Positions 31,261-34,725 of a DNA stretch of 64,000 nucleotides are shown here, piece by piece. The translations under genes and the position numbers were made by a program. This DNA comes from Deltaproteobacteria bacterium (GTDB lineage Bacteria; Myxococcota; Kuafuiibacteriia; Kuafuiibacteriales; Kuafuiibacteriaceae), in NCBI GenBank assembly GCA_040218735.1, contig JAVJQW010000038.1, positions 128,001-192,000 on the forward strand, read 5' to 3'. The notes under the pieces are model-generated. The model was given only the letters and a program-made list of their open reading frames with translations, had not been told where the DNA came from and did not search any database. How positions within the stretch are numbered: position 1 is the stretch's first letter; every line of letters starts with the position of its first letter.

Positions 31261-32337
31261 ATGCGCTGGCCCGTCGCGTCGGTTCTCATCGGCCTCGTTC
31301 ACTTCATCTCGTTCGACGCTTCCGCCCACTCCGCGACCTTGGTCGCGGCGCAGGGCGAGGTCGCGGTGCGCGCGCCCAAGGCGTCGCAGTTCGCGTCGGT
31401 GGCTTCGGGGGCGACGATCACGTCCGGCTCGCGCCTGAAGACCGGCGCCAGCGGGAGCGCGACGCTGAAGTTCGCGGACGGGACCGAGACGAAGGTCCGA
31501 CCGAAGACGCAGATCATCGTCCGCGCCGCCAAGAAGGAGGAGAAGAGCGGGCTGACGGTCTTCTTCGGCCGGGTGTGGACGAGCGTCGTGAAGCGGGTCG
31601 GCGGCGACACGGCCTTCGAAGTGCACTCCGCGAACGCGGTCGCCGGTGTGCGCGGGACCGAGTTCGAGGTCGGCGTCGCGGACGACGGATCGACGCGGGT
31701 GATCGTGACGCGCGGGAAGGTCGACGTCGGGGGCGACGGCGAGAAGGGGCCGGTGAACATCGCGGCGGGCTTCGAGATCGAGAGTGGGCCGCAGGGCGGC
31801 CTCGCGCGGCGCCGCAAGGCCAAGCGCAACGCGAACTGGGAGGGCTGGTTCGCGAAGCGCGCGAAGGTGCTCGTGAAGCGCGGGACGAAGGTCGCGAAGA
31901 ACCTCGATGGTCGACTGAACCGGCGCAAGGCGAAGCTGGAGCGGTTGCTCGGCGAGCAGCGTCAGCTCCGCGATCGGATCGTGGCGCTGGAGCGCAAGCA
32001 AAAGATGGGCGCCGACGTCGGCGACGAGCTGAAGGCGACGCTGTCGCGGCTGGAGCGCGTCACGGAGCGCATCGAGGACATGCAAGCTCGCTTGCAGGCG
32101 GCGTTCGGTTTGTTCGAGCGGTGGGGCGACGTCGCGGAGGCCGGGATGGTGAACGAACCGGCGACGATGAAGCGCATGGCGGGCAACATCCGAAAGATCG
32201 CGGCGGACTTCGCCGACATGATCGAAGAAGGCACCGACCTCTCCGAAGAAGGCATGGACGACATGATGAAGGAGATGGAGAAGGGCGGAACGCTGCGCCC
32301 GAAGAAGGGCGGCGCGAAGGACGAGCTGTTCGAGTAG
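31261..32337 (+). CDS. FecR-domain protein with C-terminal coiled coil
   Basis: Signal peptide; LKTGASGSATLKFADGT, FEVHSANAVAGVRGTEFEV and VTRGKVDV; Glu/Lys/Arg heptad-rich C-terminus. Confidence 0.88.
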   Translation: MRWPVASVLIGLVHFISFDASAHSATLVAAQGEVAVRAPKASQFASVASGATITSGSRLKTGASGSATLKFADGTETKVRPKTQIIVRAAKKEEKSGLTVFFGRVWTSVVKRVGGDTAFEVHSANAVAGVRGTEFEVGVADDGSTRVIVTRGKVDVGGDGEKGPVNIAAGFEIESGPQGGLARRRKAKRNANWEGWFAKRAKVLVKRGTKVAKNLDGRLNRRKAKLERLLGEQRQLRDRIVALERKQKMGADVGDELKATLSRLERVTERIEDMQARLQAAFGLFERWGDVAEAGMVNEPATMKRMAGNIRKIAADFADMIEEGTDLSEEGMDDMMKEMEKGGTLRPKKGGAKDELFE

Positions 32338-32681
32338 CTCGTTCTCTTGAATGGATCGCGGGATCGGTTCTTGGCGCCCGGGATCGTTCGTTCCACTGAA
32401 GATACCGCTCAGATCGGCCTGGGATCCGGGGCTGCGGGGCCGAATCCTCGGGGGTGGTCCTGGGCCCCCCGAATAAGGGCTCGAAACGTGCTTTTTGCGG
32501 GACTTTTCGGCCGCAACCTCGCGAAACAGGGGATAGATGGCCGATTTCGGCTTCTTTCGGCGCTCGGACCCGTTGCGCCCGTTCATTTCTTCCGATACGG
32601 TCCGCGCCCATCACGACGGGGACGGTCTCCGTCGAAACGCCCCGTGAAGGGGCAAGAACGCAATCTCTGGAGGTTAACGGG

Positions 32682-32891
32682 ATGGCCGGTAAGAAGAAGG
32701 CGGGCGCCAAGAAGCCCAAGGAAATGCTCCTCGTGCAGAGCAAGGTGAAGGAATACGTCCGCGGGCAGGAGATGATGTGCTCGTCGGATCTCGTCGAGGC
32801 GCTGAACGACCACGTCGCGTGGCTGCTCGACAAGGCCGTGGAGCGCGCGAGCGCGAACGGCCGCAAGACGGCGCGCGCGAGCGACGTCTAA
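32682..32891 (+). CDS. bacterial histone-fold protein (Bd0055/HBb-like) with Lys-rich N-terminal tail, 69 aa
   Basis: GGAGG RBS at 32669-32673. MAGKKKAGAKKPK-EMLLVQSKVKEYVRGQEMMCSSDLVEALNDHVAWLLDKAVERASANGRKTARASDV has the V.SKVK start and the histone-fold RKT....D end. Confidence 0.88.
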   Translation: MAGKKKAGAKKPKEMLLVQSKVKEYVRGQEMMCSSDLVEALNDHVAWLLDKAVERASANGRKTARASDV

Positions 32892-32906
32892 TCTAGGCGA
32901 CCGCTC

Positions 32907-32924
32907 AGCCCATCTCGATGGGCT
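32907..32924. terminator. hairpin AGCCCAT-ctcg-ATGGGCT between convergent genes
   Basis: Perfect 7-bp stem 15 bp after the histone stop; no long U-tract. Confidence 0.4.
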
Positions 32925-34578
32925 AGTTGGTACTTCGTGGGCGTGCGTCCGCACGCCGGTGCGTGCGCCCACGAGCACTCCACAGCAACGCGACGAACAC
33001 CCACCCCCAGGCGCTCTGCCTCGAACGTCGCGTCGAAGAACACGAACAACCCATCTCGTCCGCCGGCAACTTGGTCGGAGGGGCACAGCCGTCGAAGCGC
33101 GAGCAAAGCGATCCGCGCCCGTCGGTGTACGCGACGTACGCGGCGTCCATCGCGACGCGGAACGCCTCGTAGGGGGCGAGGTCGACGCTCGCGGCTGCTT
33201 CACCCGGGGCGGTGAGCACGACGTAACGAAGCGCGCGCTCCGCGACGCCCGGATCGCGCGGTCCGACGCGCGCGACGACATCCTCGATCGTCACGTCGAT
33301 CCGCCGGCCGAGGATCGCGGTCCCCACGGCGAGCTGCGCTTCGGCGGGGATCGCGGCGCCGTCCTCGGTGGTGGCGTCAGCGACGAAGAAAAACGGCGGG
33401 ACCTCGTCGGCGTCTGCGAGCCCGAGCCCGTACAGATCGAGCGGGGCGTAGCGCTCGTTCCTCGACTGCACGACGAAGCGCCCGGGGCGTGACTCGACGA
33501 ACCCGTGGCCACCGAGGACGGAGCCGTCGGTGTGCAAGAGCGCGTGCCAGTGCGCGCGCTGCCGGCCGAGCATCGTGACCGCCGCGGTCGAGCCGCCGAC
33601 CGTGGCCTCGAGGTGCGCGAGGTGCCGGTGCGCGATCTCGTGGAAGAAGAGCGCCTCGTCCTCGTCGCCGAGCTGCTTCATGTTGACGATGCCCTCGAGC
33701 CGCTCGACGCCGAACGCCGCGCGCTGATCCACGTCGTCGTCGCCGGTGCCCGCGACGTCGTCGAAGAACGGCACGTAGTAGGCCGGGCCGCCCGCGCCGA
33801 GATCGTCGAACGTGGTGAAGAGGACGATGACACCTTCGCCGTCCGCGCCCTCGTCGGCGAGGCGCGCCGTGATCCTCGCGAGGTCGTCGACCTCGTCGTC
33901 GAAGCGGATCCCGTAGGCGTCATCGATCCCGCTGACGAGACCGTCGCCCTCGAGCACGAGGAGCTCGCCGACGCGCGCGGTGAGGGCGTGGCCGGTGGTG
34001 CGGACGTGGTCGTTGGCGAAGCGGCGGGGCGTGTGGGTGCCGCGGTCGAGCGCGGGGGCGCAGGCGGTGAGGGCGAGGAGGAGGAGGGTGGGGATCGGGT
34101 TGGGGATCGGGATCGGACTCCGGATCGGATTCGGGATCGGACTCCGACTCGGATTCGGGATCGGATGCGGATGCGGATGCGGGATCGGATTCCGACTCGG
34201 ATTCGGGATCGGACTCCGACTCGGATTCGGGATCGGATTCGGGATCGGATGCGGATGCGGGATCGGACTCGGATTCCGACTCCGACTCCGACTCGGGATC
34301 GGGATCGGACTCCGACTCGGATTCGGGATCGGTTCCCGAGTCCGATTCTGTTCCTGAGTCCGATCCTGTTCCGGAATCCGCGCCCGAATCCGATCCCGTT
34401 CCCGAATCCGAGTCCGAGTCCGAGTCCGAGTCCGAGTCCGATCCCGCATCCGAATCCGCATCCGAATCCGCGTCCGAATCCGCGTCCGAATCCGAGTCCG
34501 CGGCCGATTCCGAATCCGCGTCCGATTCCGAGTCGGTGTCCGAGTCCGATCCCCTTCCCAACGCATCATCATCACCAC
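32923..34578 (-). CDS. surface lipoprotein with HExxH motif and MYXO-CTERM-like tail; true start unresolved (lies in or beyond the microsatellite)
   Basis: LLLLALTAC lipobox with Cys at 34060-34062; [13 protein letters not shown]...AHWH zincin-like motif; LDLYGLGL; C-terminal GCSC...[13 protein letters not shown]. Confidence 0.7.
34090..34552. repeat. degenerate hexamer microsatellite arranged as two inverted arms
   Basis: The left arm is GGGATC/GGACTC/GGATTC/GGATGC units. The right arm is their reverse complements GATCCC/GAGTCC/GAATCC/GCATCC. The switch occurs near 34335-34350. Confidence 0.93.
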
Positions 34579-34652
34579 GGCCGCGATTCAGTACCGGGAC
34601 CCGGACCGGGACCACCACGGCCGCGATTCAGTACCGGGACCCGGACCGGGAC
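34573..34652. repeat. perfect 40-bp tandem duplication
   Basis: CACCACGGCCGCGATTCAGTACCGGGACCCGGACCGGGAC occurs at 34573-34612 and again at 34613-34652. Confidence 0.95.
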
Positions 34653-34725
34653 CGGGACCGGGTCCCCTTGCTTCGCTCGGGGTGGATATTGACGACCACC
34701 CCACCCCTCGTCATCCTCACCGGCG

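What the first reader, a model, noticed from the sequence alone, without database searches (positions are those of the whole stretch)
32682..32891. Bacterial histone with a eukaryote-like lysine-rich N-terminal tail
Seen: a stand-alone 69-aa gene with a strong RBS, a long upstream intergenic region and a downstream hairpin. The ORF track hides it inside a longer spurious ORF. Established: the pattern (L/V)V.SKVK......M..S......L...V..L...A...A...GRKT..A.D matches Bdellovibrio Bd0055-type histone-fold proteins, which are abundant nucleoid proteins, and Bd0055 itself has essentially no tail. Seen: this copy has an extra AGKKKAGAKKPK extension with six Lys. Inference: a tailed bacterial histone, potentially subject to acetylation or methylation.
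Basis: partly seen in the sequence, partly recalled or inferred. Interest (0 to 1): 0.72.

Follow-up and report, generated by a model that had tools for sequence, protein, structure and literature searches.

The report
Tailed face-to-face bacterial histone gene
This is a real 69-residue bacterial histone with a genuine lysine-rich N-terminal tail, but it belongs to the already described tetramer-forming "face-to-face" histone group, where such tails are common, not to the tail-less Bdellovibrio type.

Summary
A stand-alone 69-aa gene lies at 32682-32891 (+). GGAGG sits 8 nt before its ATG, a 344-nt intergenic region lies upstream and two hairpins lie downstream.

It is a histone-fold protein of the alpha3-truncated kind (AF2 pLDDT 83). 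The best fold matches are HLp, HBb and HTkC.

The tail is translated:
- All 14 same-family loci place a Shine-Dalgarno motif before the tail ATG.
- Tail codons show third-position variation.
- Two relatives have no internal Met.

The interpretation needs correcting. The protein carries the R55/N59/R61 tetramer signature of face-to-face (FtF) histones, and Bd0055 lacks it. It matches Leptospira HLp better than Bd0055 (6.4e-9 against 1.2e-5). A four-copy model uses the HLp-type dimer-dimer interface.

Positively charged N-terminal tails on bacterial FtF histones, Myxococcota included, are in print (Schwab 2024). In my survey, 57 of 108 singlet representatives have such tails.

One modest new point concerns this clade. 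The fold core is electrically neutral, and nearly all net positive charge sits in the tail. Modification of the tail is untested, and SET-domain genes do not co-occur with the histone.

Verdict: a new member of a known kind, of low to moderate interest.

The parts
32338..32681 (+). 344-nt intergenic region upstream of the histone gene, presumed to hold the promoter and 5' leader
   Evidence: It lies between the stop of the FecR-domain gene (31261..32337) and the ATG. There is no sigma-70-like hit and no Rfam hit. One RNA-library contig of run X1 covers 32541-32697.
32669..32673 (+). Shine-Dalgarno motif GGAGG, 8 nt before the ATG
   Evidence: Read directly. GGAGG or AGGAG sits at a similar distance before the tail ATG in 14 of 14 same-family loci.
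32682..32891 (+). Histone gene, 69 aa plus stop (P0001)
   Evidence: Sequence matches to solved histones: HLp 6.4e-9, HTkC 1.2e-7, Bd0055/HBb 1.2e-5.
32682..32723 (+). Codons 1-14: Lys-rich N-terminal tail (6 Lys, net charge +5), predicted disordered
   Evidence: pLDDT is under 50 for residues 1-10. M1, A2, K4, K5 and K10 are at least 90% conserved in 58 homologues. Differences per codon position are 0.297/0.287/0.495.
32724..32888 (+). Codons 15-69: alpha3-truncated histone fold (helices at 19-28 and 35-58, one turn at 66-68) with R55, N59, R61, T63 and D68
   Evidence: AF2 model, Foldseek, conservation, predicted interfaces.
32900..32975 (+). Two adjacent GC-rich hairpins after the stop codon (32900-32931 and 32934-32975), a possible terminator without a U-tract
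   Evidence: MFE -46 kcal/mol, z -3.1; no canonical terminator pattern on the + strand.

Best explanation
The gene encodes a small nucleoid protein of the alpha3-truncated histone family, face-to-face (FtF) subgroup, the group of Leptospira HLp and Thermococcus HTkC. Two chains form the handshake dimer. Two dimers then join through the end of alpha2, loop L2 and the short alpha3 (R55, N59, R61, S67, D68) into a ring-shaped tetramer. By analogy with HLp, this tetramer wraps roughly 60 bp of DNA without sequence preference, using S20, K21, K23, R27, T63 and R65. The 14-residue Lys-rich tail is translated and disordered. It leaves the fold next to the DNA-contacting N-terminus of alpha1. Because the fold core has net charge 0, the tail (+5 per chain, +20 per tetramer) supplies nearly all of the net positive charge. 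It most likely raises DNA affinity or bridges neighbouring DNA. Shown here: the fold, the family signature, the start codon and the conservation of the tail. Inferred: tetramer formation in solution, DNA wrapping, and the role of the tail.
For: Fold. The AF2 model has pLDDT 83, with helices at 19-28 and 35-58 and a turn at 66-68. The top Foldseek hits are HLp 9qt0_A (TM-score by target 0.90, rmsd 0.9), HBb and HTkC.

Sequence. HLp scores 6.4e-9, HTkC 1.2e-7 and Bd0055/HBb 1.2e-5.

FtF signature. [quoted passage not shown] In the alignment they map to R55/N59/R61. N59 and R61 are invariant and R55 is at least 90% conserved in 58 homologues. The R48/N52/R54/T56/D61 spacing of the FtF profile (section 7 of PMC11390915) fits R55/N59/R61/T63/D68.

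Tetramer. The four-copy model scored 0.85 against a best control of 0.00. That mark was reached by 20 of 30 solved one-chain pairs and 1 of 23 single chains. Runs agree in at least 89% of contacts, and the partner's pLDDT is at least 83. Contacts between copies 4 and 1 fall at 54-55, 58-59, 61, 65 and 67-68. Like complexes have been solved, so this pass shows likeness and may come from memory.

Tail start. An SD motif precedes the tail ATG in 14 of 14 same-family loci, and the sequence further upstream cannot be aligned. L016 and L017 have no internal Met. Third codon positions vary most in the tail (0.495 against 0.297 and 0.287).

Charge. The query tail is +5 and the core 0. In the 58 close homologues the core is -1 to +1, and the tail is +3 to +6 in 53 of 58.

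DNA contacts. HLp residues A13, S14 and K15 at the start of alpha1 touch DNA (section 9).
Against: There is no experimental datum for this protein. The tetramer model may simply recall HLp and HTkC. HLp S52, T61 and F63 are A58, S67 and V69 here, and HLp DNA-contact residues T27, G29 and K54 are C33, S35 and G60. The genome also has four HU/IHF-family genes, so this histone need not be the main nucleoid protein, as it is thought to be in Leptospira. One same-family relative (L015) has an acidic tail, so a basic tail is not obligatory. Expression evidence is weak: it rests on short contigs from two metatranscriptome libraries, which cannot exclude DNA carry-over or show a strand. Core charge and tail charge do not correlate across the wider family (rho 0.14, p 0.21, 83 proteins).
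Confidence: 0.75

Rival explanations
1. It is a Bd0055/HBb-type 'bacterial dimer' histone. It would stay a dimer and bend or coat DNA rather than forming a wrapping tetramer.
For: Same alpha3-truncated fold. HBb chains match with TM-score by target of 0.83-0.92 and rmsd 0.6-0.7, and with E 1.2e-5 by sequence. The invariant RKT (K62) resembles the RKTxxxD motif noted for bacterial dimers (passage in PMC11390915), whereas the FtF profile lacks a strongly conserved basic residue there.
Against: Bacterial dimers are said to lack R48 and N52. The query and 105 of 108 singlet representatives have both, and Bd0055 has S and D there. HLp and HTkC score better by sequence. The four-copy model places a confident dimer-dimer interface on these residues.
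Confidence: 0.12
2. Translation starts at the internal Met15, giving a tail-less 55-residue histone. The Lys-rich stretch would be untranslated leader.
For: An ATG is present at codon 15 in the window and in most close relatives. For HLp a longer annotated form was judged wrong on Shine-Dalgarno grounds (section 7 of PMC12701072), so start errors do occur in this family.
Against: GGAGG lies 8 nt before the first ATG. Before Met15 there is only AAGGAA, which directly abuts the ATG. The SD-plus-ATG arrangement is kept in 14 of 14 same-family loci. All tail length differences keep the reading frame, and third codon positions vary most. L016 has Leu at that position, and L017 has no other start candidate.
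Confidence: 0.03
3. It is a histone-fold protein with a specialised role, such as a stress, developmental or spore-specific DNA protectant or a local regulator. It would be a low-abundance protein and not a general nucleoid organiser.
For: The genome keeps four HU/IHF-family genes. The gene was not found in 3 of 19 same-family genomes searched, two of them 92-96% complete. FtF histones in some archaea are expressed far below the main histone.
Against: The strong SD and the monocistronic layout fit high expression. The family is tightly conserved (59% mean column identity in 58 homologues). Characterised members are abundant.
Confidence: 0.1

Closest known systems
HLp of Leptospira perolatii (PDB 9QT0/9QT1/9QT2), a bacterial face-to-face histone
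   Same: It is the best match by sequence (6.4e-9) and by fold. It shares the truncated alpha3, the R/N/R tetramer residues, the RD clamp (R61-D68) and the S-K-x-K DNA-contact motif at the start of alpha1. Its N-terminus is also disordered.
   Different: HLp has only about 6-7 disordered N-terminal residues, against about 12-14 here with 6 Lys. A58, S67 and V69 replace HLp S52, T61 and F63. Leptospira is reported to lack HU, whereas this genome has four HU/IHF-family genes. The gene neighbourhood differs: FecR-domain and unknown genes here, and SMC, MAP and DUF350 in Leptospira.
HTkC of Thermococcus kodakarensis (PDB 9F2C), an archaeal face-to-face histone
   Same: E 1.2e-7 and 46% identity over the fold. 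It forms a torus-shaped tetramer.
   Different: Archaeal FtF histones generally lack tails. In the alignment HTkC has Glu where this protein has N59.
Bd0055/HBb of Bdellovibrio bacteriovorus (PDB 8CMP, 8FVX, 9EZZ), a 'bacterial dimer' histone
   Same: Alpha3-truncated histone fold, RKT...D motif and S-K motif in alpha1.
   Different: It has S and D at the R55 and N59 positions, is a dimer, has about four residues before the fold and matches more weakly by sequence (1.2e-5).
N-terminal tails of eukaryotic core histones and Asgard archaeal histones
   Same: A disordered, Lys-rich N-terminal extension on a histone fold.
   Different: The tail here is much shorter. It is low-complexity, with no demonstrable homology to those tails. 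No modification is known for it, and no reader, writer or eraser is linked to it. SET-domain genes do not track the histone in relatives (9 of 33 with it against 9 of 28 without).

Membership tests
Alpha3-truncated prokaryotic histones | Histone fold (alpha1-L1-alpha2-L2-alpha3) with alpha3 cut to 3-4 residues and a shortened alpha2 | tested here: met
   AF2 model: helices at 19-28 and 35-58, helical turn at 66-68. Foldseek tops are HLp, HBb and HTkC at rmsd 0.6-1.0. The definition comes from a passage in PMC11390915.
Alpha3-truncated prokaryotic histones | RxTxxxxD motif (RD clamp plus L2 threonine) | tested here: met
   R61, T63 and D68 are present. R61 and D68 are invariant and T63 is at least 90% conserved in 58 homologues.
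Face-to-face (FtF) histones | Conserved dimer-dimer residues R48 and N52 of the FtF profile (HLp R49 and N53), together with R54 (HLp R55) | tested here: met
   R55, N59 and R61 are present at the right spacing. They are conserved in the 58 homologues. R..N is present in 105 of 108 singlet representatives.
Face-to-face (FtF) histones | Predicted tetramer (torus) with both sides of the dimer engaged | tested here: met
   The four-copy model scored 0.85 against a best control of 0.00. The mark was reached by 20 of 30 solved one-chain pairs and 1 of 23 single chains. Runs agree in at least 89% of contacts, and the partner's pLDDT is at least 83. Copy 4 touches copy 1 at 54-55, 58-59, 61, 65 and 67-68. 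Only one copy was scored, so closure of the ring was not seen directly. Like complexes are solved, so the pass may come from memory.
Face-to-face (FtF) histones | Stable tetramer in solution and wrapping of about 60 bp of DNA | not testable with these tools
   This needs SEC-MALS, crystallography or tethered-particle assays, as were done for HLp.
Bd0055/HBb-type 'bacterial dimer' histones | Lack of the conserved R48 and N52 that mediate dimer-dimer contact | tested here: not met
   The query has R55 and N59. Bd0055 has S and D there. The definition comes from a passage in PMC11390915.
Bd0055/HBb-type 'bacterial dimer' histones | No confident multimer larger than a dimer is predicted | tested here: not met
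   A confident dimer-dimer interface is predicted.
Bd0055/HBb-type 'bacterial dimer' histones | Clusters by sequence with Bd0055 (CLANS in the source paper) | tested here: inconclusive
   No clustering was run. Pairwise, Bd0055 scores 1.2e-5, against 6.4e-9 for HLp and 1.2e-7 for HTkC.
Tailed histones (eukaryote- or Asgard-like) | Disordered, positively charged N-terminal extension that is translated | tested here: met
   pLDDT is under 50 for residues 1-10. There are 6 Lys in 14 residues, net charge +5. SD position, conservation and codon pattern support translation.
Tailed histones (eukaryote- or Asgard-like) | Tail lysines are post-translationally modified and read | not testable with these tools
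   This needs mass spectrometry. The only lead tested, SET-domain genes, showed no association with the histone.

The most novel reading that the evidence does not exclude
In this Myxococcota clade the histone fold has lost its own net positive charge, so DNA binding has come to depend on the conserved tail (M-A-x-K-K-K ... K-K-P-x-E). Neutralising those lysines, by acetylation for example, would then act as an on/off switch for chromatin compaction. That would be a bacterial counterpart of eukaryotic tail regulation, evolved on a face-to-face tetramer.
Probability: 0.12. Interest if true: 0.75.

Novelty: new member of a known kind. Interest (0 to 1): 0.3.

Why it matters
Bacterial histones are a young field with only two experimentally characterised types: the HBb dimer and the HLp tetramer. 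The literature is also inconsistent on tails. One paper says most bacterial singlets lack long tails (PMC10627809). Another says tails are common and mostly positive in bacterial FtF histones (PMC11390915). A third corrected an over-long HLp annotation (PMC12701072).

This locus gives a clean case in which a 14-residue Lys-rich tail is supported by Shine-Dalgarno position, codon-level conservation and relatives that have no alternative start. In this clade the tail carries essentially all of the protein's net positive charge. That makes the clade a convenient system for asking what a bacterial histone tail does. It does not change what is known about the family.

Tried and rejected
Pfam gave no hit for the protein. 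NCBIfam gave only a sub-threshold archaea_histone hit (15.5 bits against a cut-off of 50).

Rfam found nothing in 32300-33100. The promoter scan found no sigma-70-like site, and the terminator-like sites it found lie only on the minus strand inside the gene.

SET-domain methyltransferases as a lead for tail methylation. The genome has two. Across 61 genomes, SET was found in 9 of 33 with the histone and in 9 of 28 without it. In the window's own family, 16 of 19 genomes have the histone but only 3 of 19 have SET. There is no association, so the lead was dropped. Kin are not independent, so this is only descriptive.

Charge compensation between core and tail across the wider family. There is none: Spearman 0.14, p 0.21, on 83 of 108 singlet representatives. 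I dropped 25 with extensions over 31 residues, C-terminal extensions over 4 residues, or a non-Met first letter, as likely miscalled or different architectures.

Expression. Runs X3 and X4, which share the species label, laid nothing. X1 and X2 gave only short contigs. Two X1 pieces are identical to the window over 79 and 93 nt. One X1 piece covers 32541-32697 with 12 differences and 1 gap. One X2 piece covers 32684-32890 with 6 differences. Contigs show neither strand nor level, and DNA carry-over is not excluded. I treat this as a weak hint that the gene or a close relative's gene is transcribed, and I name no habitat from it.

The second weak match in the same genome (C59, E 0.5) was not followed.

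Supplementary figures of PMC11390915 (its Supplementary Figs. 13, 19 and 20 on bacterial tails) and of PMC12701072 could not be seen. They may already show these Myxococcota tails.

Searches of papers for tails on bacterial histones were. I read passages of PMC10627809, passages and section 7 of PMC11390915, and the outline, passages and sections 6, 7, 9 and 10 of PMC12701072. The other listed papers were seen as search listings only.

Full report
THE OBSERVATION

The window holds an ATG at 32682 and a TAA at 32889-32891, which encode 69 residues. GGAGG lies at 32669-32673, 8 nt before the ATG.

The gene upstream on the same strand (31261..32337) has a FecR domain (6.3e-15), which leaves 344 nt of intergenic DNA. 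The next long frame downstream is on the other strand and has no Pfam hit. After the stop codon, two GC-rich hairpins fold at 32900-32931 and 32934-32975 (MFE -46 kcal/mol, z -3.1, 1 of 200 shuffles as good). No T-run follows, and the pattern scan found no terminator on the + strand. No Rfam family matches 32300-33100.

IS IT A HISTONE?

Pfam gave nothing, and NCBIfam gave only a sub-threshold archaea_histone hit. Against the sequences of solved structures, four histones match:
- HLp of Leptospira perolatii (9qt0): 6.4e-9
- HTkC of Thermococcus kodakarensis (9f2c): 1.2e-7
- Bd0055/HBb of Bdellovibrio, two constructs: 1.2e-5 and 1.3e-5

I folded the protein with AlphaFold2 on an alignment of 58 homologues. 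The model has mean pLDDT 83, with helices at 19-28 and 35-58, a single turn at 66-68 and residues 1-10 below pLDDT 50. Foldseek against the PDB ranks HLp first, then HBb and HTkC. TM-scores by target are 0.83-0.92 and rmsd 0.6-1.0 A. Classical archaeal histones, NF-Y and eukaryotic histones follow far behind. So the histone fold, in its alpha3-truncated form, is shown as far as prediction can show it.

WHICH KIND OF HISTONE?

Schwab et al. 2024 define face-to-face (FtF) histones by a predicted torus-shaped tetramer. They name profile positions 48, 52, 54, 56 and 61 (R, N, R, T, D) as strongly conserved, with R48 and N52 making the dimer-dimer contacts. The Bd0055-like 'bacterial dimers' lack R48 and N52 (PMC11390915, passages and section 7). 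Hu et al. 2025 solved HLp. [quoted passage not shown]

In the alignment these residues map to R55, A58, N59, R61, S67 and V69 of the window's protein. N59 and R61 are invariant and R55 is at least 90% conserved among the 58 homologues. In the same alignment Bd0055 has Ser and Asp at the R55 and N59 positions.

A four-copy complex prediction scored 0.85, with a best control of 0.00. That mark was reached by 20 of 30 proteins solved as one-chain pairs and by 1 of 23 solved as single chains. The runs agree in at least 89% of contacts, and the partner's pLDDT is at least 83. The scored copy makes the handshake dimer with one copy, and it touches a copy of the other dimer at residues 54-55, 58-59, 61, 65 and 67-68. 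That is the HLp-type interface.

Like complexes have been solved, so this pass shows likeness and may come from memory. Only one copy is scored, so I did not see the closure of the ring directly.

Taken together, the protein is an FtF-type histone, not a Bd0055-type one. One departure from the FtF profile is the invariant Lys62 (R-K-T), which the source paper says is not strongly conserved in FtF histones.

IS THE TAIL REAL?

This matters because the HLp authors showed that a longer database form of their protein was a start-codon error. Four lines of evidence agree here.

1. All 58 database homologues of similar length carry the extension. M1, A2, K4, K5 and K10 are at least 90% conserved.
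2. I took the DNA of 14 loci from genomes of the same taxonomic family: L001, L003-L010 and L012-L016. L011 was left out because its start candidates are TTG or GTG, and L017 because my pattern did not pick it up. In all 14, GGAGG or AGGAG lies at a similar distance before the tail ATG, and the sequence further upstream cannot be aligned. In L014 a stop codon lies one codon before that ATG.
3. Within the tail, pairwise differences per codon position are 0.297, 0.287 and 0.495. In the fold they are 0.220, 0.158 and 0.495. So the tail evolves as coding sequence under weaker constraint. Every length difference in the tail keeps the reading frame.
4. L016 has Leu where the window has Met15, and in L017 the tail ATG is the only start candidate. 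Before Met15 the window has only AAGGAA, which abuts the ATG directly.

Short contigs from two metatranscriptome libraries cover the gene, tail codons included. This is only a weak hint of transcription.

HOW UNUSUAL IS THE TAIL?

It is not unusual. A profile search of 1.84 billion representatives found 1740 proteins at E up to 0.001. Among the best 150 plus the first 58, 164 have one fold and 42 have two. Of the 108 one-fold representatives:
- 105 carry the R..N signature.
- 57 have at least 8 residues before the fold with net charge +3 or more.
- 32 have at least 8 residues before the fold without that charge. Some of these are plainly miscalled starts that contain an internal M-A-K-K tail.
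- 19 have fewer than 8 residues before the fold.

After dropping 25 likely miscalled or differently built proteins, the median extension is 12 residues, with quartiles 9 and 18.5. The window's extension is 14. [quoted passage not shown] Their supplementary tail figures could not be seen here.

WHAT IS MODESTLY NEW

Within this clade the tail is conserved in sequence, and the fold itself is electrically neutral. The query core has net charge 0 and the tail +5. In the 58 close homologues the core is -1 to +1 and the tail is +3 to +6 in 53 of 58. The wider family has a median core charge of +3. Across the wider family, core charge and tail charge do not correlate (rho 0.14, p 0.21), so this is a feature of the clade and not a rule of the family.

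In HLp the first residues of alpha1 (A13, S14, K15) contact the DNA backbone. S14, K15, K17, K21 and R59 give about half of the computed binding energy (sections 9 and 10). Their counterparts here, S20, K21, K23, R27 and R65, are conserved. The tail leaves the fold right beside this site. I therefore infer that the four tails of a tetramer (+20 in all) add non-specific contacts with DNA and may set the affinity. One same-family relative (L015) has an acidic tail instead, which argues against an absolute requirement for a basic tail.

CONTEXT IN THE GENOME

The assembly has 11.6 Mb in 70 contigs and holds one copy of the gene. A second match at E 0.5 was not followed. The genome has four HU/IHF-family genes over the Pfam cut-off. 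So, unlike Leptospira, which is reported to lack HU, this organism combines a histone with classical nucleoid proteins.

With this query, a match at E up to 0.001 was found in 33 of 61 genomes searched, the window's own included. In the same family that is 16 of 19. Names given by sources to homologues point to Myxococcota.

MODIFICATION OF THE TAIL

Nothing here tests it. As a lead I looked for SET-domain genes. The genome has two. Among the 61 genomes, SET occurs in 9 of 33 with the histone and in 9 of 28 without, which gives no support.

VERDICT

The family assignment should be changed from the Bd0055 type to the face-to-face, HLp-like type. The claim of an unusual, eukaryote-like tail should be lowered, because positively charged tails are the norm in this bacterial group and are in print. 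This is a new member of a known kind. The remaining interest is that this clade offers a clean, well-supported tail that carries all of the protein's net charge, which makes it a good test case for what bacterial histone tails do.

Noticed in passing
window 34091-34549 (also 34573-34666): A dense array of 6/12/18/24-nt tandem repeats lies under overlapping long frames on both strands. These frames read as Asp/Ser/Glu-rich or Pro/Ile/Asn/Ser-rich low-complexity protein. After the repeats, the minus-strand frame 32923..34578 continues into a lipoprotein-like L-T-A-C motif. Which frame is real is unclear.
   Followed up: no
proteins P0061, P0063-P0067, P0069, P0070 and others: Many of the best-scoring relatives are tandem doublets of this histone fold, about 114-134 aa. 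42 of the 206 proteins held have two folds. Some score as high as the singlets.
   Followed up: partly
proteins P0060, P0073, P0093, P0097, P0098, P0175: These histone-fold proteins begin with a hydrophobic, signal-peptide-like segment, followed by a K-P-K-E motif and then the fold. This hints at exported or membrane-anchored histone-fold proteins. P0111 and P0150 carry further N-terminal domains.
   Followed up: no
L029 (G049) and L031 (G056); proteins P0177, P0179: Relatives in the same phylum encode Cys-rich, zinc-finger-led double histone folds. These are probably the ZZ histones described by Schwab 2024.
   Followed up: no
protein P0162: One representative has a 40-residue tail built from about six A-K-K-A-P repeats, reminiscent of linker-histone-like repeat tails. 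P0116, P0182 and P0202 have 28-31-residue tails with 11-16 basic residues.
   Followed up: no
L015 (G012:C5): A same-family homologue (62% identity to the query) has an acidic tail (M-S-E-E-E-S-N...) in place of the Lys-rich one, behind a good AAGGAGG motif.
   Followed up: partly
L028 (G057:C1:275205-275429): The match to the histone in this relative contains one in-frame TGA. It may be a broken copy, or two adjacent matches read through.
   Followed up: no
G000 contigs C23, C17, C48, C39 (L032-L035); C59 and C5 (L036, L037): The window's genome holds four HU/IHF-family genes and two SET-domain genes. Among 14 control genomes, SET matched only in Methanosarcina acetivorans.
   Followed up: partly
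G000:C59:388587-388679 (L002): A weak second match to residues 36-66 of the histone (E 0.5, 42% identity) lies inside a 781-aa open frame. It may be chance, or a histone-fold-like segment in a large protein.
   Followed up: no
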